Shown: positions 5,574 through 54,767, numbered from the stretch's first letter. The stretch is DNA of 64,000 nt from a virus (IMGVR_UViG_2541047959_000009), one strand, 5' to 3'. Translations and numbers: made by a program. Notes: generated from the sequence alone by a model not told the origin.

Positions 5574-6224
5574 TCAGCGGCTGTCATTGCGCAGTCTGCG
5601 CTCTAGCTGCTGTTTGTCTTTTTTCACGCCACAGCGGGGATCGAGCTGTAACGCATGGTTGAGATGATTAAGGGCAGACGCCGGATTTCTTTCACTCAGG
5701 ACAGCGCCAATCGCTTTATGCAGACGCGCCCGTGACTGGTCCGGCATATCCATACCGTCTGTCAGCTCCAGGGTCTTCAGCAACAGATCGGTATCAAAGC
5801 CGGTGGCGGCAAGCATTGCGCTCTGGGCTGCATCTGCCATTTCCTCTGCCAGCACGGTCTGCACGTTGCGGTTACCTAACGGCATCACCCAGCCATGACG
5901 CAGGGCGTGACGCCCGATCTCCAGCGCCCCGGCATAATCTCCGGCATCAATGCGCCACAGCATCACGTACATCAGCACGTCATCCTGTTGAGCGCCTCCG
6001 GCAGCCAGGACACCCTCCGCCCAGGCGGCGTACTTCGGCAGCAGCTCCACCTTGATTTCCGCTTTTTTGACCGTGGACTGAACGCCCTTGAGACGGCGGC
6101 GGTCTTCCGCCAGTTGCAGCAGCATCAGGTCATAGCCCGACGCGTGGCGAACGCTGCCGCCCTCGCGGGCGGCCTGTTCAGCCTGAACGCGCAGGCGATG
6201 CTGCCGTGCGGGACTCAGGCTCAT
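5574..6224 (-). CDS. M: P2 M-like terminase small (endonuclease) subunit
   Basis: 216-aa ORF; position between N and L. Confidence 0.8.
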   Translation of the reverse strand: MSLSPARQHRLRVQAEQAAREGGSVRHASGYDLMLLQLAEDRRRLKGVQSTVKKAEIKVELLPKYAAWAEGVLAAGGAQQDDVLMYVMLWRIDAGDYAGALEIGRHALRHGWVMPLGNRNVQTVLAEEMADAAQSAMLAATGFDTDLLLKTLELTDGMDMPDQSRARLHKAIGAVLSERNPASALNHLNHALQLDPRCGVKKDKQQLERRLRNDSR

Positions 6225-43407: not shown

Positions 43408-44590
43408 CGGAGGGTTTCGTGGTCATGTTCATCGGTGTGAGATAGACATCCCCACCGGGACGGGGATTCATATCTTCCAGGTCGCGGCAGTCATTGGGAG
43501 AGTAAATTCCCCAGTTAATCCCGGTGGCGTAGGCTTCAAAACGGGACTTCATATCCCCGCGCAGTAACGCCCCGGCGTTAAATTTGGCGTAATAAACGCC
43601 CTGCTTACTTTTTCGAACCAGTCCGGTGTTGATCCGCTGCTCGATGCGGGTCAGATACGGCACCAGTGAATAGTTGATAAATCCCAGCCCCAGCTCTTCA
43701 ATATTGTTGAAGGTGGCGCGATCGGTGTTCTGCACCATGTGCAACGGCACCCGGAACAGACGACAGATTTCTTCAAGCTGAAACTTGCGGGTTTCCAGGA
43801 ACTGGCTGTCCTCGGCGTTCAGCGCCATCGACTTCCAGTCCAGCCCCATCTCAAGGATCATCGGGCGGTGAGCATTACCAAGCCCGGTGTGACGCTCCTC
43901 AAAATCTTTCTTCAGGCGCTCGTAAGCCTGATCTGACAGCGTCTGCTCTGTACGCAACACACCCGACGTCACCGCACCATTGCTGAACAGTCTGGCCCCG
44001 TGCTCTTCGGTCGCAGCTGCCAGCGATATTGCCTCGCGGGCATAGGCGATGGGATTCAGCCCCACCAGACCGTCCAGCGTCAGCGTGCGCACATGCCAGA
44101 TATCTTCCTGGCTCAGCACATCCGTGGAGCCGTCCGAGAATGTGACCTGATAGACCGGCTCCCAGCTACTGTTAAGCTTCGGTACCACACAGCCAGGATC
44201 GACGGGCAGCAGTTCAGCCACTTCGCCAAATGCTTTCACTTTGTAGGCGTAAAAGTTTCCCCGCAGGCACAGACAGGTGACCACCAGCTCCCAGAACTCC
44301 TGCGGCGTCATATAGCCATTGGGATGCGTGGAGATCAGCTTATGCAGACGTTCGCCGGTGGCCCTCTGTTTCAGGCTGCCGTTCAGGTGATACAGATTGC
44401 AGGGCAACATCCCGACCGACTCTGCCAGCACCCTGACGCAGGAAAAAACCGCCGTCAGTCGCATGGCCCGCTGGCTGCTGATCTGCTTTCCGGTATAGGT
44501 GTCGTATGACAGCCCGATAGCCTCCGCCAGCTCTGCTGGCGTGGTCACCGGCGCGTCACTTTTTCGTTGAAATAATCCCGAAAAGAACAC
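43349..44590 (-). CDS. Portal protein (HK97 family)
   Basis: 413-aa ORF after terminase large subunit. Confidence 0.85.
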   Translation of the reverse strand: MFFSGLFQRKSDAPVTTPAELAEAIGLSYDTYTGKQISSQRAMRLTAVFSCVRVLAESVGMLPCNLYHLNGSLKQRATGERLHKLISTHPNGYMTPQEFWELVVTCLCLRGNFYAYKVKAFGEVAELLPVDPGCVVPKLNSSWEPVYQVTFSDGSTDVLSQEDIWHVRTLTLDGLVGLNPIAYAREAISLAAATEEHGARLFSNGAVTSGVLRTEQTLSDQAYERLKKDFEERHTGLGNAHRPMILEMGLDWKSMALNAEDSQFLETRKFQLEEICRLFRVPLHMVQNTDRATFNNIEELGLGFINYSLVPYLTRIEQRINTGLVRKSKQGVYYAKFNAGALLRGDMKSRFEAYATGINWGIYSPNDCRDLEDMNPRPGGDVYLTPMNMTTKPSDGSKAGKQKDNANADETTS

Positions 44591-44772
44591 TATTTACCTC
44601 CGCCGACAGACAGCTGTGTACGATCGAGATATCGCGCCACCAGCCACGACCAGAACAGGCACAGCGCCCCGGCAACAACAAAACCCGCCGGGGGATAAAT
44701 CAGCCAGGCACCATATGCCAGCAAAAGCGCACCCAGCACGCCCACCAGAGGCGCGAGAATCAGCATGATCAT
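44590..44772 (-). CDS. Small membrane protein
   Basis: 60-aa hydrophobic ORF between terminase and portal. Confidence 0.4.
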
Positions 44773-47133: not shown

Positions 47134-47484
47134 TCACTTCAGTCGTTCACGGGCCGTCTTCGCCTTATGACACGGCCAGCACAGGCTCTGCAGATTGCAG
47201 TCTGCATCAGTGCCGCCATGCGCTTTAGGGATGATGTGGTCAACGGTTTTCGCCTCACGCACCACACCGACATGCAGGCACAACTGACACAGGCCTTTGT
47301 CACGCTTCAGCACGCGCGCGCGGATAACATCCCACTTCGAACCGTAGCCGCGCTGGTGACGGGATTGTCCTGGCTTGTATTGTTTCCAGCCTTCGCTTTT
47401 GTGGCTTTCACAATAGCCTGACGGATCAGTGGTGGTTTGGCGGCAGCCGCGAACGCGGCAGGCTTTTGGGGTTCGTGGGGGCAT
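47134..47484 (-). CDS. HNH endonuclease (terminase-associated)
   Basis: 116-aa ORF with cysteine pairs and DHIIP...H...CH motif; precedes terminase as in HK97-like phages. Confidence 0.85.
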   Translation of the reverse strand: MPPRTPKACRVRGCRQTTTDPSGYCESHKSEGWKQYKPGQSRHQRGYGSKWDVIRARVLKRDKGLCQLCLHVGVVREAKTVDHIIPKAHGGTDADCNLQSLCWPCHKAKTARERLK

Positions 47485-47586
47485 TTAAAGTGGGATCTAA
47501 CTCTAATAATTTAAAAAATTTAATTGGGTCTTGATATTAATCACATAGACTCAATGCTCTTTAGTTCTTACATAGGTGGTTGTATT

Positions 47587-48027
47587 ATGAGTATCCCCAG
47601 TTTAGATGTTCATAAAGTTGTTAAGTGCGCAGAGCATAAAAAGGCTTTAGATGCAATATCTCTCAAACTTAAGAATAACATTATTGACTCAAGCTCTGAA
47701 TACGATTTTCTTGGCGACACAATAATTTTCAATAAAGATAAAAAAAATAGGTTAACCCTCAAACTTTCAACATATGAACTAGAACTTATTTTCAAAGAAA
47801 CACTGCTAGTCATTGATGAAGCTCCTGTATTGAAGTTTGCTGCCATTGACCCAACCGATGAAAATAACAACGAGCTGATTGATTTATTTTTATCCAAAGG
47901 TGGATTTATTTATATTAGAGAATACAAATCCGAGCCACATTATGAGTATGGCGACACTTCTCTATTTTTACATATACTTGACGCTACTCTTAAAGAGCTT
48001 AAATCTGCAAACAAAATATCCTATTAA
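47587..48027 (+). CDS. Hypothetical AT-rich moron protein (146 aa)
   Basis: Plus-strand ORF opposite to the late operon; AGGTGG RBS before ATG 47587. Confidence 0.45.
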   Translation: MSIPSLDVHKVVKCAEHKKALDAISLKLKNNIIDSSSEYDFLGDTIIFNKDKKNRLTLKLSTYELELIFKETLLVIDEAPVLKFAAIDPTDENNNELIDLFLSKGGFIYIREYKSEPHYEYGDTSLFLHILDATLKELKSANKISY

Positions 48028-48133
48028 ATAAATTTTTGCTAACATAGCCCCGCGCCATGACAAGATTTTCTGTTCTAGATGCAAGGGCTATGTGTGAATA
48101 TCTATAAACAAAAACCCCATCCGGTGATTTTTG

Positions 48134-48385
48134 TCATTTTTTAGCCATCTCAATTGCGGCATCAAAAAGTCGTTCAAGAATAAAATCAGGGTACTGTAAT
48201 TTTTCTTGCTCGATATGAAGCTCATAAATTTTCCCTTCCCACTCCCATTTAAAATTAAATCCAGAAGCAGAAGGTGCGAAATGTGTTTTAGCTTTAGGGT
48301 TAGCGTAACCAGCAACAGTCAACACATCAAACTTAAAATCTTGAGGTTTAATACGCATAATCATATCCTTTGCCAAGTTCATCAT
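48134..48385 (-). CDS. Hypothetical AT-rich small protein (83 aa)
   Basis: Convergent with 47587-48027; start uncertain. Confidence 0.4.
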   Translation of the reverse strand: MMNLAKDMIMRIKPQDFKFDVLTVAGYANPKAKTHFAPSASGFNFKWEWEGKIYELHIEQEKLQYPDFILERLFDAAIEMAKK

Positions 48386-48455
48386 TATTCTTCTCGATTA
48401 TAAAACAATGAATAAAATCATTAAAGCATAGACGTTAAATATCCTCAAAATGTGA

Positions 48456-48893
48456 TTAGTTGGGACATTGCGTCCTGATATACTCCTGCAAGTAATTGAC
48501 CTGTGAGGTTATCTTGTCGATTCCACTTCGGAGACGGTAATAATGGAGTTCAGCATCTGCTGTAAGTCTAGGGCTTTCTCCATCGCCCATGCCGCTGGCT
48601 CCGGTCGTTGACTTTGTACAGGTGGCGGCGACTTGCAGGCGCTTATGCCCAGCAGAAACATCAGCACGAAGACTTTCGATAGTCGCATTAGCATCAGCAA
48701 GCTCCTTTGTATATCTGGCATCGAGTTCAGCTACATTACGTTGACGCTTCTGCATATCAGCGATGATGGATGTGGCTTTATCGCGCTGTACTTTGTAGAC
48801 GATGGCGTCATCACGGTAATTATCAACAGCCCATGACAAGCAGACGATGATGCAGATAACCAGAGCGGATATAATCACCGTTACTCTGCTCAT
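48456..48893 (-). CDS. Rz-like i-spanin
   Basis: 145-aa ORF, N-terminal TM, after endolysin. Confidence 0.7.
48509..48721 (-). CDS. Rz1-like o-spanin lipoprotein embedded in Rz
   Basis: Embedded alternate-frame ORF with lipobox LLGISAC and proline-rich region. Confidence 0.5.
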
Positions 48894-49366: not shown

Positions 49367-49757
49367 TTTTCACCCCTGTCAGTCGTTCCCAGAAGTACGT
49401 CAGTGCAACCGAACCCATCGCACCACTAATCCCCGCAGTTGCGAGAATCATGTAAATACTGAATCCACTTTCGATACTGATTAGGCCACCAATAACACCG
49501 GTGAATCCTGATACAACTATCTGAGCGAGGGCATTTATCCAGCTCCACGTTGCTTTACTCTGCTTCACATCAATCAGGTAACGGACAAGCCCCCCCCAAC
49601 CTGCGATGATCAGCAAAACAAGCCAGAACGCTCCGGCAAGATTCTCTTTTTCGTGCATATGAATAGCCGCAGTTTCGCCTCCGACAGAAAATCGGAGCGT
49701 GAAATGATATGTTGATTTATTATTAATTCGAAAATTACATTCTAATTCATCAGGCAT
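49353..49757 (-). CDS. Holin
   Basis: TM-rich ORF overlapping endolysin start; likely start at internal MHEK at 49658. Confidence 0.6.
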   Translation of the reverse strand: MPDELECNFRINNKSTYHFTLRFSVGGETAAIHMHEKENLAGAFWLVLLIIAGWGGLVRYLIDVKQSKATWSWINALAQIVVSGFTGVIGGLISIESGFSIYMILATAGISGAMGSVALTYFWERLTGVKNAKS

Positions 49758-49809: not shown

Positions 49810-50145
49810 TTATTTTACATCCCAAGGTAGTTCCTCAAGAGAGAAGACTAATTCATTATCAATAATTTCGTATTCTGCATAACCTTCAACCTCTCCTGAG
49901 AAGTTATTGTCAACGCATCCTTCATAATAGCTATATGGTGCTATAAAGTGAAACCCATATTCATCTATCTCTGTGATTTCAAAATTGTAGTAATCGTAAG
50001 AATATCGAATATCATCATCAGAAATAGAACTAAGTACATAGTTATTAAATTTATCGGAATGCTTAACGATAAGTTCTGACAACGCGTCAAGATTCTCTGG
50101 AGAGATATTTCCTAACGGTAATCTGTACTCAACGGCATTAATCAT
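49810..50145 (-). CDS. Hypothetical acidic AT-rich moron protein (111 aa) between antiterminator and lysis genes
   Basis: ORF downstream of the tR-prime-like terminator and upstream of holin. Confidence 0.5.
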   Translation of the reverse strand: MINAVEYRLPLGNISPENLDALSELIVKHSDKFNNYVLSSISDDDIRYSYDYYNFEITEIDEYGFHFIAPYSYYEGCVDNNFSGEVEGYAEYEIIDNELVFSLEELPWDVK

Positions 50146-50330: not shown

Positions 50331-51083
50331 TTATCTCGTCACCTTTCTCAATTGTGTTTCAGCATATGCTTCTTCCTGCCAGCACTTTGTTACTAGTTTA
50401 TCAATTACGTCTGCATATCCTTTGTACCACTGATAATCAGTCAGGTCTGGAACCAGCTTCTGGACATGACGTCGTGCCAGTGTAGTCGGTAAACGGCTAA
50501 ACCGGTTTCCATTGCAACGCCCACAAGTCTTATAAACAGGCGTGCCATGAAGCCGGGTTCTTTTTTCATCCAGGACAATACCTTTACCCTTACACCCTCT
50601 GCACGCCGTGCTGACTTCTCCCTTGCCATGACAATGCTGACACAGTTCCTTCACCCACTCTTCTTTGATAACGGATTCCCCGCTTCTGGAATGTTTCACC
50701 ACTTCGCGCAATACATTATGAAATCCAGTACCAGTACAATGCTCACAGCGAGCCTTACTTGCCGCAGACCTGGAATAATCAGCAAAGGCAAAATTCACAA
50801 GGTAAGGGATGATCTGTAACCGGGTTTCTTCACTCAATTTGTTCAATGTCGGGTTATCCAGTGCCATCGCGTAATTGAGCAGGCCTTCAATCGCAAACTG
50901 AGGATCCTGAACACCAACTTTTGCCAGGAATAAGGCAAACCCAAGCGGTGCTTTCGACTGCACCATCCCCTGCGCAGCCATTACATCCGTAATTGTTAAA
51001 CCACCCGAGCCTGTCGCCGATGCGTCATCGCTCAATTTTGGAGATTTTGGGGAGTAATATTTCGGTAAGGCTTCAAGGTTCAT
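50331..51083 (-). CDS. Late antiterminator Q-like protein (multi-CxxC zinc finger)
   Basis: Position just upstream of terminator and lysis genes; CEHCTGTG/CQHCHGKG/CRGCKGKG/CGRCNGN motifs; start taken at MNLEAL. Confidence 0.5.
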   Translation of the reverse strand: MNLEALPKYYSPKSPKLSDDASATGSGGLTITDVMAAQGMVQSKAPLGFALFLAKVGVQDPQFAIEGLLNYAMALDNPTLNKLSEETRLQIIPYLVNFAFADYSRSAASKARCEHCTGTGFHNVLREVVKHSRSGESVIKEEWVKELCQHCHGKGEVSTACRGCKGKGIVLDEKRTRLHGTPVYKTCGRCNGNRFSRLPTTLARRHVQKLVPDLTDYQWYKGYADVIDKLVTKCWQEEAYAETQLRKVTR

Positions 51084-51096
51084 GCTCGTTCTCCAC

Positions 51097-52092
51097 TTAC
51101 ACCAGTACGCCAATTGCCAGCGCACGATCGATAAAACGAAATATCAGCTCCAGCTGGGAGCCATACATCTCTTCAAATGCCACGGTATCCGCATGCAGCT
51201 CGTCGTGATGCTTTCTGCACAAAGGCAACACAAAAAGGTCATGCGCTTTTGTACCCATTCCACCCTGTCCGTGGCCTATCAGGTGGTGGGGATCATCAGC
51301 GGGCTTTCCACAACATGCACACGACTGTGTCTTAACCCAGCGCGTGTACTTTTCATTAACCCAGCGGCGACGTTTTGGGCGTAACATAAAAGACTCCGGC
51401 GACTCCGGATCCACTTTCAGCGCCAGCACCTTTTTCGCCTTATCCTGGATGATGCTGGTGGCAGGAACCGAAGGCACAAGGTCACTTTCCCGGGTGACAG
51501 ACGGCACAACAGGCTTCGGTAATCTCAGTGCCTTACGGGCTGCACTTTCCGGTAAGGCATCCGCCAGATCATTACGAACCAGCCACCAGCACAGTTCCGG
51601 CATTGTCACAACGTGACTGTCATCAAAACCGAGATCCCGACGCACAACAGACAACACCCAGCGGGCACAGTTATCCGTTGCCATTGATTCCAGCCGTTCC
51701 GTGAACTGATCGCGAAGCAGGTTATCGCAGTGCCAGCACAGACGGATTGCGCCCGGCGCGTGTCGCATTGTGGTCATGTTCTCGCTGTGCCATCCGGAAT
51801 GAGGCCACTGACAGCCCTTTTCACGAAGTAACCAGCTTTCAAGACATTCCACACCCCCCGCACGACGAATAACTGCCTCATTGCGGAACACGGCCCGAAT
51901 GGCAGGATCATCCGCCAGCGGTTGTGATGCCGCCGGAACGGCACCACTGGCAAAAGATGAATAACGTTCCGGCTCAGGCTCCAGCAGGACACGCCCCTGC
52001 ATAAACAGGGGCATCAGCTCTGAACCGGGCCTGAACAATACGATCCCCATACGCGGGGCAATTTCAGGGGTCAGTAGTGCTCTCACGGTCAC
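51097..52092 (-). CDS. Phage protein, DUF968/NinG-like with C-terminal HNH-like motif
   Basis: 331-aa ORF; C-terminal CACCGKP...HHL...H...HH..LH. Confidence 0.45.
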   Translation of the reverse strand: MTVRALLTPEIAPRMGIVLFRPGSELMPLFMQGRVLLEPEPERYSSFASGAVPAASQPLADDPAIRAVFRNEAVIRRAGGVECLESWLLREKGCQWPHSGWHSENMTTMRHAPGAIRLCWHCDNLLRDQFTERLESMATDNCARWVLSVVRRDLGFDDSHVVTMPELCWWLVRNDLADALPESAARKALRLPKPVVPSVTRESDLVPSVPATSIIQDKAKKVLALKVDPESPESFMLRPKRRRWVNEKYTRWVKTQSCACCGKPADDPHHLIGHGQGGMGTKAHDLFVLPLCRKHHDELHADTVAFEEMYGSQLELIFRFIDRALAIGVLV

Positions 52093-53623: not shown

Positions 53624-54306
53624 GCCGCCATCTCCCTGAGCAGTTTTTCCGCCTGCTGGCGAACCTGCGCCAGAAACGCCTCACCACATGCCTCAAGTTC
53701 ATCGCGCCCGATGTAGCTGATTGCCGGTCCCTTCCAGGTCTTGTCAAAAACAGCAATAGCACCAGCGAAGAAAGCTCCTGTCGGCACCTGCTTCTCGTCT
53801 TTCGGGATAAACCAGACAGGCAGTTCAAAACCAATACGCCCGCGAATAAAAGCAATATGATCTGCATCTTCCGGCCACCACACTTCGCTGGTGGCAGCTT
53901 TGATCAGGAAAACATAGCGCCCGCCTTTATCACGCATGGCACTGGCATGCTTCATGATGTAACGCATGCCGGTGATGTATTGCCCCTCATGCTGACTGGC
54001 GCGGCTGTATGGGGGATTACCAAAGGCAGCACCTTTAAGCTCCGCAAGACGTTCTGACCAGTCATGCGCCAGCGCATTGTCTTCCGCCGTGTAATACGCG
54101 GCACATTTGGCGTTACCACCGTCGGTGAACAGATCCAGAACAAACGGGCCAAACAGGGTGTTAATTCCCCAGAAAATGTTGTCCGGCGTGCGCCACTGAT
54201 CGCCCACTTCCTTCAGTTCATGGGCTGGTTTGTTCCGCAGCTCCACCAGCGCCTGGCAATATTTATTACTCATTAAGCCCCCACGTAATTCCCTGACAGA
54301 TACCAC
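53620..54306 (-). CDS. Phage N6-adenine DNA methyltransferase (NPPY motif)
   Basis: FGNPPY motif; start may be internal at 54273. Confidence 0.75.
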   Translation of the reverse strand: MVSVRELRGGLMSNKYCQALVELRNKPAHELKEVGDQWRTPDNIFWGINTLFGPFVLDLFTDGGNAKCAAYYTAEDNALAHDWSERLAELKGAAFGNPPYSRASQHEGQYITGMRYIMKHASAMRDKGGRYVFLIKAATSEVWWPEDADHIAFIRGRIGFELPVWFIPKDEKQVPTGAFFAGAIAVFDKTWKGPAISYIGRDELEACGEAFLAQVRQQAEKLLREMAA

Positions 54307-54767
54307 TCTTCACCCGATGCAGCGCGCTTGCTGCTTTTCCGTAAGCACCGCTCACGACGCGCCAGAAAATTGTTTCGTTCTGGCTGGGAGTGGCTTTCAC
54401 GGAATGCCGCCATCCACACGGTTGCAGCACGACGGTATAAACCCCTGGACTCCAGTTCTTCAGCCTGGCGGGTCAGGCACAAAATCACCCGTGGATCGTT
54501 AGTGCCGACATAGAAATTGCGCACAGGTCTGGTTTCTCGAACTGGTTGTGGTTCCGGTTCCTGCGCTCTCTCAGTCAGGCGCGGGAAATGTCTGCGTGTA
54601 TCTCCTTCACAACGGTGAGCCACACGCCCACTCTGACGTAACTTGCTTGCTGACTGCAGAACGCGCTGTCGTGAGTAACCTGCAAAAGCATCCGCAATGT
54701 CACCGGAAGTACACCCCGGATGGGCTTCAATGAATTTCTGAACGTCATTTAACAGACTCATGATCAC
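54273..54767 (-). CDS. Hypothetical phage protein
   Basis: 164-aa ORF between replication gene and methyltransferase. Confidence 0.4.
   Translation of the reverse strand: MIMSLLNDVQKFIEAHPGCTSGDIADAFAGYSRQRVLQSASKLRQSGRVAHRCEGDTRRHFPRLTERAQEPEPQPVRETRPVRNFYVGTNDPRVILCLTRQAEELESRGLYRRAATVWMAAFRESHSQPERNNFLARRERCLRKSSKRAASGEEWYLSGNYVGA

What the first reader, a model, noticed from the sequence alone, without database searches (positions are those of the whole stretch)
47587..48385. Convergent pair of AT-rich morons between HNH/terminase and the lysis cassette
A 146-aa plus-strand gene with strong RBS and an 83-aa minus-strand gene face each other inside an otherwise co-directional late region. 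Both are AT-rich and of unknown function, a possible toxin/immunity or exclusion pair.
Basis: seen in the sequence. Interest (0 to 1): 0.45.

Follow-up and report, generated by a model that had tools for sequence, protein, structure and literature searches.

The report
Two unrelated prophage cargo genes, side by side
Two small AT-rich genes of unknown function sit between the lysis and DNA-packaging genes of an E. coli prophage; they are real and conserved, but they are two independent cargo genes ("morons"), not a matched toxin/antidote pair.

Summary
A 971-bp island (47485-48455) has 33% GC against 48-57% in its flanks. It lies between Rz and the HNH endonuclease of a prophage found in ST95-type ExPEC strains (S88, UTI89, APEC O1). 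It carries ORF-A (47587-48027, +, 146 aa) and ORF-B (minus strand). ORF-B is best read as 74 aa (48134-48358), not 83 aa.

Both are real genes: they are longer than chance allows and evolve under purifying selection. Neither matches Pfam, PHROGs, NCBIfam, PADLOC or PDB sequences.

The pair interpretation fails. ORF-A relatives always lie on the opposite strand just upstream of HNH, in five other phage contexts, never with ORF-B. ORF-B relatives lie downstream of the lysis genes on the late-operon strand, in ten or more other contexts, never with ORF-A. ORF-A is frameshifted at an A8 tract in about 42% of carrier genomes while ORF-B stays intact.

The best reading is two independent morons brought together by module shuffling in a known cargo slot. 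The closest known architecture is the tai/ati "non-contiguous operon" of phage phi80, but there is no sequence similarity to it. Function remains inferred. Interest is modest.

The parts
47485..48455 (.). AT-rich cargo island (971 bp, 32.9% GC) between the HNH start codon and the Rz stop codon
   Evidence: Composition. Megablast homology to phages SfIV and vB_EcoM-720R4 stops at the HNH start codon, and those phages have 27-290 nt in this slot. No flanking repeats and no Rfam match.
47587..48027 (+). ORF-A: 146-aa cytoplasmic protein, pI 5.4, antisense to the late operon, orphan family
   Evidence: Only 6 representative clusters among 1.84 billion proteins, down to 30% identity over the full length. 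dN/dS 0.32-0.40. No family hits. AF2 pLDDT 39, not usable.
47574..47579 (+). AGGTGG ribosome-binding site, 7 nt before the ORF-A ATG
   Evidence: Read from the sequence. The upstream in-frame ATG at 47554 is closed by a stop codon in homologue L002, so the 146-aa start is preferred.
47531..47559 (+). Candidate ORF-A promoter: TTGATA, 17 nt, ATGCTC (weak -10)
   Evidence: TTGAT(A/G) is conserved in L002, L017 and L018. The distant homologues L024 and L025 have perfect TATAAT boxes 30-40 nt before the ATG. The consensus scan found no more promoter-like sites than chance. Inferred, not shown.
47740..47747 (+). A8 homopolymer inside ORF-A (codons 50-54). The A7 allele truncates the protein to 55 aa
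   Evidence: 58 genomes match the A8 query exactly. 44 fall in the 95-99% identity band; 25 of the 26 of those listed are one base short (A7), hence about 43 in all. The tract state shows all four allele combinations with three mutually compatible SNP groups among 12 near-identical prophages.
48035..48098 (+). Long hairpin just downstream of the ORF-A stop codon
   Evidence: spacer z = -2.2 on the + strand and -3.9 on the - strand. ORF-A homologues each carry a different strong hairpin right after the stop codon.
48100..48134 (-). Weak terminator-like hairpin plus U-run just after the ORF-B stop codon; a degenerate copy of the canonical terminator in homologues
   Evidence: Window: CACCGGATGGGGTTTTTGTTT. 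Homologues: GCCGCC-N4-GGCGGTTTTTTGTTG in L003, L005, L008 and L010.
48134..48358 (-). ORF-B: 74-aa cytoplasmic protein on the late-operon strand, orphan family (the 83-aa reading starts at 48385)
   Evidence: dN/dS below 0.07. AF2 pLDDT 68, alpha-beta3-alpha-alpha fold, only generic fold matches.
48366..48370 (-). AAGGA ribosome-binding site, 7 nt before the 74-aa start of ORF-B
   Evidence: Read from the sequence. (A)AAGGA is invariant across all six upstream regions aligned.
48397..48402 (-). TATAAT (-10-like box), 38 nt before the ORF-B start
   Evidence: (A)TATAAT is kept at 35-41 nt from the start codon in 5 of 6 otherwise poorly conserved upstream regions. The -35 is weak. Inferred promoter.

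Best explanation
The locus holds two unrelated, independently mobile cargo genes ("morons"). They ended up next to each other when a lysis module carrying ORF-B recombined with an HNH/packaging module carrying ORF-A. The slot between lysis and packaging genes is known to collect such cargo.

Shown:
- Both are real, selected protein-coding genes of narrow orphan families in Enterobacterales prophages.
- ORF-B travels with the end of the lysis cassette.
- ORF-A travels with the HNH gene, in inverted orientation.
- Related phages have the slot empty.

Inferred mechanism:
- ORF-A is transcribed from its own weak sigma-70 promoter in the lysogen. Its transcript stops at the hairpin after its stop codon.
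- After induction, Q-antiterminated late transcription runs antisense through ORF-A and damps it. This is the "non-contiguous operon" logic shown for taiEcA in phage phi80.
- ORF-B is made with the late genes. It may also be made from its own conserved -10 box.

Neither protein has catalytic motifs. Both most likely act by binding another protein. My best guess for ORF-A is a prophage-expressed factor in phage-phage conflict (superinfection interference), at roughly 0.3 probability. It appears dispensable or costly, because it is repeatedly switched off at an A8 tract. ORF-B's strong conservation across phages with different holins, terminases and capsids points to a conserved host target, or some target outside the phage, rather than to ORF-A.
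For: Independence of the two genes:
- ORF-A relatives are in 5 other contexts, always on the opposite strand upstream of HNH, and never with ORF-B.
- ORF-B relatives are in 10 or more other contexts, downstream of the lysis genes on the same strand, and never with ORF-A. Most lie 50-110 nt after Rz; in L040 and L042 the gap is about 700 nt.

Insertion:
- The slot is empty in SfIV and vB_EcoM-720R4.
- GC is 33% against 48-57% in the flanks.

Transcription-unit features:
- A TATAAT box is conserved 35-41 nt before ORF-B, and a canonical terminator follows it in homologues.
- Hairpins follow every ORF-A homologue, and L024 and L025 have TATAAT boxes upstream.

Coding and selection.

Precedent: in phi80, taiEcA sits inverted inside the Q-controlled late operon upstream of the packaging genes. 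It is expressed in the lysogen and is reduced when Q is supplied (PMC11364771).

Dispensability:
- About 43 of 102 carrier genomes have the A7 frameshift.
- At least 4 independent tract changes are needed among 12 near-identical prophages.
- IS1 is inserted in ORF-A in APEC E18006.
Against: - No transcript data are available.
- The sigma-70 consensus scan finds no more promoter-like sites than chance in this AT-rich DNA, and only one terminator-like site, which lies outside the island.
- In the window the ORF-A -10 element and the ORF-B terminator are both weak.
- No homology or usable structure supports any function for ORF-A (pLDDT 39).
- Frequent inactivation of ORF-A fits neutral decay as well as it fits cost.
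- Some A7 calls could be homopolymer sequencing errors, because UM146 and SF-173 carry other homopolymer indels. Five of the six A7 genomes examined do share the allele with an intact holin tract or an otherwise clean sequence. My recollection that UTI89 and APEC O1 are Sanger assemblies is not a tool result.
Confidence: 0.6

Rival explanations
1. A cognate two-gene system. ORF-A would be a lysogen-expressed defence or toxin, and ORF-B its late-expressed counter-defence or immunity protein, as with TaiEcA/AtiEcA in phi80 or a toxin-antitoxin pair.
For: - The architecture is the same in outline: an inverted gene embedded in the Q-dependent late operon, next to a small gene on the late strand, upstream of the packaging genes.
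- ORF-B (74 aa) is about the size of AtiEcA (76 aa).
- In phi80, loss of ati selected for IS insertions in tai. Here ORF-A is hit by IS1 in one genome and by frameshifts in many.
- Only 5 atiEcA-like genes were found for the 57 Tai homologues, so a defence gene travelling alone is not unusual.
Against: - ORF-B is conserved under strong purifying selection (dN/dS below 0.07) in 10 or more phage contexts that lack ORF-A.
- ORF-A stands alone between Rz1 and HNH in L025.
- The genes are convergent and separated by two hairpins. In phi80 the two genes are divergent and their starts overlap.
- ORF-A does not resemble TaiEcA, and ORF-B does not resemble AtiEcA.
- ORF-A is broken while ORF-B is intact in many genomes, so ORF-A cannot be an antidote needed against ORF-B.
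Confidence: 0.1
2. ORF-B is an accessory lysis or late-stage gene rather than a moron. ORF-A is decaying cargo with no current function in these hosts.
For: - ORF-B follows the lysis genes on the late-operon strand in every locus examined.
- ORF-A is off in about 42% of carriers through recurrent slippage.
- For the window versus the frameshifted L023 copy, ORF-A dN/dS is 0.72.
Against: - ORF-B accompanies three different holin families and two spanin families, so it has no fixed lysis partner.
- Most lambdoid phages lyse without it: it is absent from 50,697 phage records.
- It has its own conserved -10 box and terminator.
- ORF-A is kept full-length down to 30% identity, with dN/dS of 0.3-0.4, so the family as a whole is under selection.
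Confidence: 0.15
3. ORF-A is a lysogenic-conversion factor that acts on host physiology or virulence in ExPEC ST95, rather than on other phages. The A8 tract would then give population-level ON/OFF heterogeneity.
For: - It sits where lambda carries bor, a lysogen-expressed virulence moron (own knowledge).
- Among E. coli complete genomes it is essentially confined to one prophage lineage, found in extraintestinal pathogens such as S88, UTI89, APEC O1 and IHE3034.
- The tract has switched repeatedly.
Against: - There is no signal peptide, lipobox or membrane segment (sequence; GRAVY -0.20).
- The A8 tract is absent from other ORF-A homologues, so it is not a conserved contingency feature.
- The observed switching rate is within what neutral slippage at an 8-nt run might give. 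This is my own rough estimate.
Confidence: 0.1

Closest known systems
taiEcA/atiEcA "non-contiguous operon" of phage phi80 (He et al. 2024, Nat Commun, PMC11364771)
   Same: - A gene on the opposite strand interrupts the Q-controlled late operon, between the lysis genes and the packaging module.
- It lies next to a roughly 75-aa gene on the late-operon strand.
[quoted passage not shown]
   Different: - There is no sequence similarity. tblastn against all phage records, which include phi80, found nothing. hhalign probability was 0.1-0.5%.
- TaiEcA is 204 aa; ORF-A is 146 aa.
- The phi80 genes are divergent with overlapping starts; here the genes are convergent.
- ORF-A and ORF-B have disjoint distributions outside one lineage.
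- No function has been tested here.
Lambda bor and the classic HK97/HK022 morons (definition as given in PMC2629481; bor and the Juhala/Hendrix morons from my own knowledge)
   Same: - An extra gene is present in some relatives and absent in others at the same position.
- Its base composition is foreign.
- It has promoter-like and terminator-like flanks.
- Like bor, ORF-A lies downstream of Rz and is transcribed against the late operon.
   Different: - Bor is a lipoprotein. ORF-A and ORF-B have no signal sequence and no similarity to Bor.
- Expression from the prophage has not been shown here.
Type II toxin-antitoxin or toxin-immunity pairs
   Same: Two small adjacent genes of unknown function on a mobile element.
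   Different: - The genes are convergent, not co-transcribed.
- Adjacency is not conserved.
- No toxin or antitoxin family matches either gene.
- Either gene can be lost alone.

Membership tests
Moron (independently expressed cargo inserted in a phage operon) | Present at a position where closely related phages have nothing | tested here: met
   SfIV and vB_EcoM-720R4 have 27-290 nt between Rz1 and HNH, against 971 bp here.
Moron (independently expressed cargo inserted in a phage operon) | Base composition differs from the flanking phage genes | tested here: met
   32.9% GC against 57.4% and 47.8%. Homologues stay at 30-44% GC in all hosts.
Moron (independently expressed cargo inserted in a phage operon) | Own promoter | tested here: inconclusive
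   A TATAAT box is conserved 35-41 nt before ORF-B in 5 of 6 loci. For ORF-A, TTGATA is conserved and distant homologues have TATAAT. The consensus scan is not above chance.
Moron (independently expressed cargo inserted in a phage operon) | Own terminator | tested here: inconclusive
   Homologues have strong hairpins or terminators. In the window a weak hairpin plus U-run follows ORF-B, and a long hairpin without a U-run follows ORF-A. The consensus scan flagged neither.
Moron (independently expressed cargo inserted in a phage operon) | Expressed from the repressed prophage | not testable with these tools
   Needs RNA or protein data from a lysogen.
Tai/Ati tail-assembly-inhibition defence and counter-defence | Sequence homology to TaiEcA (ORF-A) or AtiEcA (ORF-B) | tested here: not met
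   tblastn against the phage collection, which includes phi80, found no match. hhalign probability 0.13% and 0.51%. Neither accession appears in the paper's supplements that are held as text.
Tai/Ati tail-assembly-inhibition defence and counter-defence | Inverted gene inside the Q-dependent late operon, upstream of the packaging genes, beside a small late-strand gene | tested here: met
   Orientation differs: convergent here, divergent in phi80.
Tai/Ati tail-assembly-inhibition defence and counter-defence | Blocks tail assembly of other phages, and the partner protein relieves the block | not testable with these tools
   Needs plaque assays and electron microscopy.
Toxin-antitoxin or toxin-immunity pair | The two genes co-occur and stay adjacent across relatives | tested here: not met
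   They co-occur only in the window lineage (89% identity or more). Elsewhere there are 5 ORF-A-only and 10 or more ORF-B-only contexts.
Toxin-antitoxin or toxin-immunity pair | Loss of the protective partner alone is not tolerated | tested here: not met
   About 43 of 102 genomes have ORF-A frameshifted, and ORF-B was intact in five of the six such genomes examined. Both genes are lost in APEC O1.
Known anti-phage defence families (PADLOC-DB v2) | Significant match to a defence-protein model | tested here: not met
   The only hit is PDC-M24A at E = 0.011-0.016, 13 bits over 30 residues, in 2 of 6 family members.
Lysis-cassette accessory protein (antiholin-type regulator) for ORF-B | Constant association with one holin or spanin family | tested here: not met
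   ORF-B is found with Phage_holin_2_1, Phage_holin_3_3 and the window's holin. It is found with both PF03245 and DUF2570 spanins.

The most novel reading that the evidence does not exclude
ORF-A could be a new single-protein prophage immunity factor. It would be expressed in the lysogen, silenced by antisense late transcription after induction, and toggled ON/OFF in ST95 ExPEC populations by slippage at its A8 tract. ORF-B could be a new late-expressed counter-defence protein with a conserved target. Together they would be a second, sequence-unrelated example of the phi80 tai/ati "non-contiguous operon" logic.
Probability: 0.12. Interest if true: 0.6.

Novelty: new member of a known kind. Interest (0 to 1): 0.3.

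Why it matters
If ORF-A proves to be a lysogen-expressed interference factor, it would add a new protein family to the defence cargo carried upstream of phage packaging genes. It would also be a second case in which antisense placement inside the late operon switches such a gene off during the phage's own lytic growth. The carrier lineage (ST95-type strains such as S88, UTI89 and APEC O1) is medically important, and it shows a natural ON/OFF polymorphism, so isogenic comparisons would be easy. As it stands, the locus is an ordinary example of orphan prophage cargo. The main result is negative: the attractive "pair" reading is not supported by how the two genes are distributed.

Tried and rejected
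- **Family searches.** Pfam, PHROGs, NCBIfam and PADLOC were searched with the single proteins and with every member of both alignments. Nothing was significant.
- **PDB sequence profiles.** Only noise, E of 0.05 or higher.
- **tblastn against 50,697 phage records.** No match for either protein.
- **Exhaustive HMMER search with the ORF-A profile.** Only 6 clusters in 1.84 billion proteins.
- **Species-representative genomes.** No ORF-A relative. One ORF-B relative, in Pantoea latae.
- **AF2 model of ORF-A.** pLDDT 39.4, so no fold search was attempted.
- **Relationships among the cargo proteins.** hhalign of ORF-A against ORF-B, and of ORF-A against the third moron at 49810-50145, found none.
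- **Non-coding RNA and repeats.** No Rfam match in the island. No flanking direct or inverted repeats that would suggest a transposable unit.
- **Literature.** A search for the two RefSeq accessions found nothing.
- **Neighbour of ORF-B in L008.** The 206-aa gene is not a Tai homologue. Other neighbours in the slot are also orphans, apart from one DUF2158 protein.

Full report
**Setting.** The window matches E. coli S88 and MS7163 at 100% over the region queried, and about 100 other complete genomes at 99% or more, including UTI89, APEC O1, IHE3034 and DSM 30083. The region is a prophage read on the minus strand. Its order is: Q antiterminator (50331-51125), a small AT-rich gene (49810-50145), holin, lysozyme, Rz (48456-48893), the island under study, HNH endonuclease (47134-47484), P27-family small terminase, large terminase, YmfR, portal, and HK97-type protease and capsid. 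A contractile tail lies further on.

**Observation.** The described features are all present.
- ORF-A is 47587-48027 (+), 146 aa, with AGGTGG 7 nt before the ATG.
- The minus-strand ORF 48134-48385 (83 aa) exists. The start at 48358 (74 aa) is better supported. AAGGA lies 7 nt upstream of it, RefSeq uses it, and every full-length homologue is 72-74 aa and begins at that Met.
- The genes are convergent, with 106 nt between their stop codons. Only ORF-A is inverted; ORF-B runs with the late operon.
- The island 47485-48455 has 32.9% GC, against 57.4% on the HNH/terminase side and 47.8% on the lysis side.
- In 5000 shuffles of the island no ORF reached 146 aa. A second-longest ORF of at least 74 aa appeared in 12 of 5000.
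- ORF-B is under strong purifying selection: pN 0.11-0.17 with synonymous sites near saturation, dN/dS below 0.07. ORF-A is under moderate purifying selection, dN/dS 0.32-0.40.

Both are real genes.

**What they are not.** Neither protein matches Pfam, PHROGs, NCBIfam or PADLOC. This holds for the window proteins and for every member of the family alignments. Profiles of both families find nothing in PDB sequences. tblastn against 50,697 phage records finds nothing.

An exhaustive HMMER search with the ORF-A profile returns six clusters among 1.84 billion representatives. The most distant is 30% identical over the full length. ORF-B has about fifteen clusters, all from Enterobacterales prophages (Enterobacter, Citrobacter, Pantoea, E. 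coli). It occurs in one of 185,579 species-representative genomes.

The ORF-A model is unusable (pLDDT 39). The ORF-B model (pLDDT 68) is a small alpha-beta3-alpha-alpha domain whose fold matches are generic. There is no Rfam match and no flanking repeat.

**Test of the pair idea.** I collected loci for both families from assemblies and viral contigs and mapped the window's proteins onto them.

ORF-A relatives are always on the strand opposite to the late genes, just upstream of an HNH gene. In one group a single small gene lies between them. They occur in phages whose large terminases are only 25-63% identical to the window's. Outside the window lineage (L014-16, L023, L031-34; 89% identity or more) none has an ORF-B relative. 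In L025 ORF-A sits directly between the o-spanin and HNH.

ORF-B relatives follow the lysis genes on the same strand. Most lie 50-110 nt after Rz; in L040 and L042 the gap is about 700 nt. They occur in phages with three holin families, two spanin families and several unrelated terminase and portal types. None has an ORF-A relative.

So ORF-B belongs to the lysis-side module and ORF-A to the HNH/packaging-side module. The convergent pair is a junction product of one lineage.

Within that lineage ORF-A is frameshifted in about 42% of genomes, and ORF-B was intact in five of the six such genomes I examined. In APEC O1 both are inactivated: A7 in ORF-A and W40* in ORF-B. These facts rule out an obligate toxin/antidote relationship in either direction.

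**Moron anatomy.** The nearest described phages have an empty slot. In vB_EcoM-720R4 Rz1 ends about 27 nt from the HNH start; in SfIV the gap is about 290 nt. Nucleotide homology to the window stops exactly at the HNH start codon.

Upstream of ORF-B, a TATAAT box is kept 35-41 nt from the start codon in five of six otherwise poorly conserved spacers. AAAGGA is invariant in all six. Downstream, the homologues have a canonical terminator (GCCGCC-N4-GGCGG followed by T6). The window has a degenerate copy of it.

Every ORF-A homologue is followed by a strong but different hairpin. The window has a long hairpin at 48035-98. The distant homologues L024 and L025 have perfect TATAAT boxes upstream. 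The window lineage keeps a TTGATA -35-like element but has a weak -10.

The generic promoter/terminator scan is not above chance in this AT-rich DNA. The transcription signals are therefore inferred from conservation, not demonstrated. By the definition quoted in PMC2629481, both genes qualify as morons on position and composition. The expression criteria are untested.

**Closest known system.** He et al. 2024 (PMC11364771) describe phi80 taiEcA (orf63). It is an inverted gene that interrupts the Q-dependent late operon between the lysis and packaging genes. It is expressed in the lysogen and is reduced when Q is supplied. Beside it lies atiEcA (orf64, 76 aa) on the late strand, which neutralises Tai during the phage's own lytic growth. 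The authors call this a "non-contiguous operon". They report that phage-borne Tai genes lie predominantly upstream of the packaging module.

The window's layout is the same in outline, and this supplies the most likely regulatory logic for ORF-A. Membership fails, however. There is no similarity of ORF-A to TaiEcA or of ORF-B to AtiEcA. The orientation differs. The distribution data argue against ORF-B being ORF-A's partner.

**A8 tract.** ORF-A contains the only A/T run of 8 or more in the surrounding 20 kb (47740-47747). Of 102 E. coli genomes carrying the tract region, 58 match the A8 query exactly. The other 44 fall in the 95-99% identity band. Of the 26 of these that were listed, 25 are one base short (A7) and one is a substitution variant, so about 43 genomes carry A7. 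The A7 allele gives a 55-aa truncation.

I compared 12 near-identical prophages over 20 kb. The tract state shows all four allele combinations with three mutually compatible SNP groups: {IMT5155, C1, E19035}, {E12053, BEN5202} and {APEC O1, PU-1}. At least four independent length changes are therefore required. The diverged copy L023 (89-94% identity) is also A7. P0002 has an in-frame 3-nt deletion at the same place.

Other ORF-A homologues lack the tract. It looks like a mutational weak spot in a gene that is dispensable or costly, not a conserved contingency device. Some calls may be homopolymer assembly errors, because UM146 and SF-173 show other homopolymer indels.

**Verdict.** "Morons of unknown function" is right. 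"Toxin/immunity pair" is not supported.

The best explanation is two independent cargo genes in a known hot spot. ORF-A is probably expressed in the lysogen and damped by antisense late transcription. Any defence role is conjecture, at about 0.3. The locus is a new member of a known kind, and interest is modest.

Noticed in passing
window 47740-47747 (inside ORF-A): The A8 homopolymer is polymorphic. 58 E. coli genomes match the A8 query exactly; 44 fall in the 95-99% band, of which 25 of the 26 listed are A7 (frameshift, 55-aa product). Among 12 near-identical prophages the tract state conflicts with three compatible SNP groups, so at least 4 independent slippage events are needed.
   Followed up: yes
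L028 3001-3800 (APEC E18006), equivalent to window ~47587-47671: IS1 is inserted after nt 85 of ORF-A. The rest of the late and early prophage region is deleted, up to yfdR and the integrase.
   Followed up: partly
L046 10431-10655 (APEC O1), equivalent to window 48239: APEC O1 carries a nonsense mutation (W40*, TGG to TGA) in ORF-B in addition to the A7 frameshift in ORF-A, so both cargo genes are inactivated in that strain.
   Followed up: yes
window 49590-49597 (holin gene): A C8 run in the holin gene reads C9 in UM146 and SF-173, where RefSeq marks the holin as frameshifted. This is either a real inactivation or a homopolymer assembly error.
   Followed up: partly
window 49810-50145 (-): A third AT-rich moron (33.6% GC) lies between Q and the holin, in the slot where Stx phages carry stx. 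It encodes 111 aa and is very acidic (pI 4.05; 24 D/E against 5 K/R). It matches PHROG 13663, which has no known function.
   Followed up: partly
L003 ~5935-5985, L006 and L010 equivalents (upstream of ORF-B homologues): The conserved TATAAT box is flanked by an inverted repeat, CTGTGAA(A)TTT ... AAATTCACAG. This could be an operator or an RNA hairpin. It is not evident in the window.
   Followed up: no
window 53746-54669: In strain C1 (cow) this stretch, which lies upstream of the methyltransferase/PerC genes, carries about 30 clustered SNPs relative to the other 11 prophages. This looks like a recombination patch.
   Followed up: no
window 44590-44772 (-): A 60-aa hydrophobic ORF, annotated as YmfR, is wedged between the large terminase and the portal gene.
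   Followed up: no
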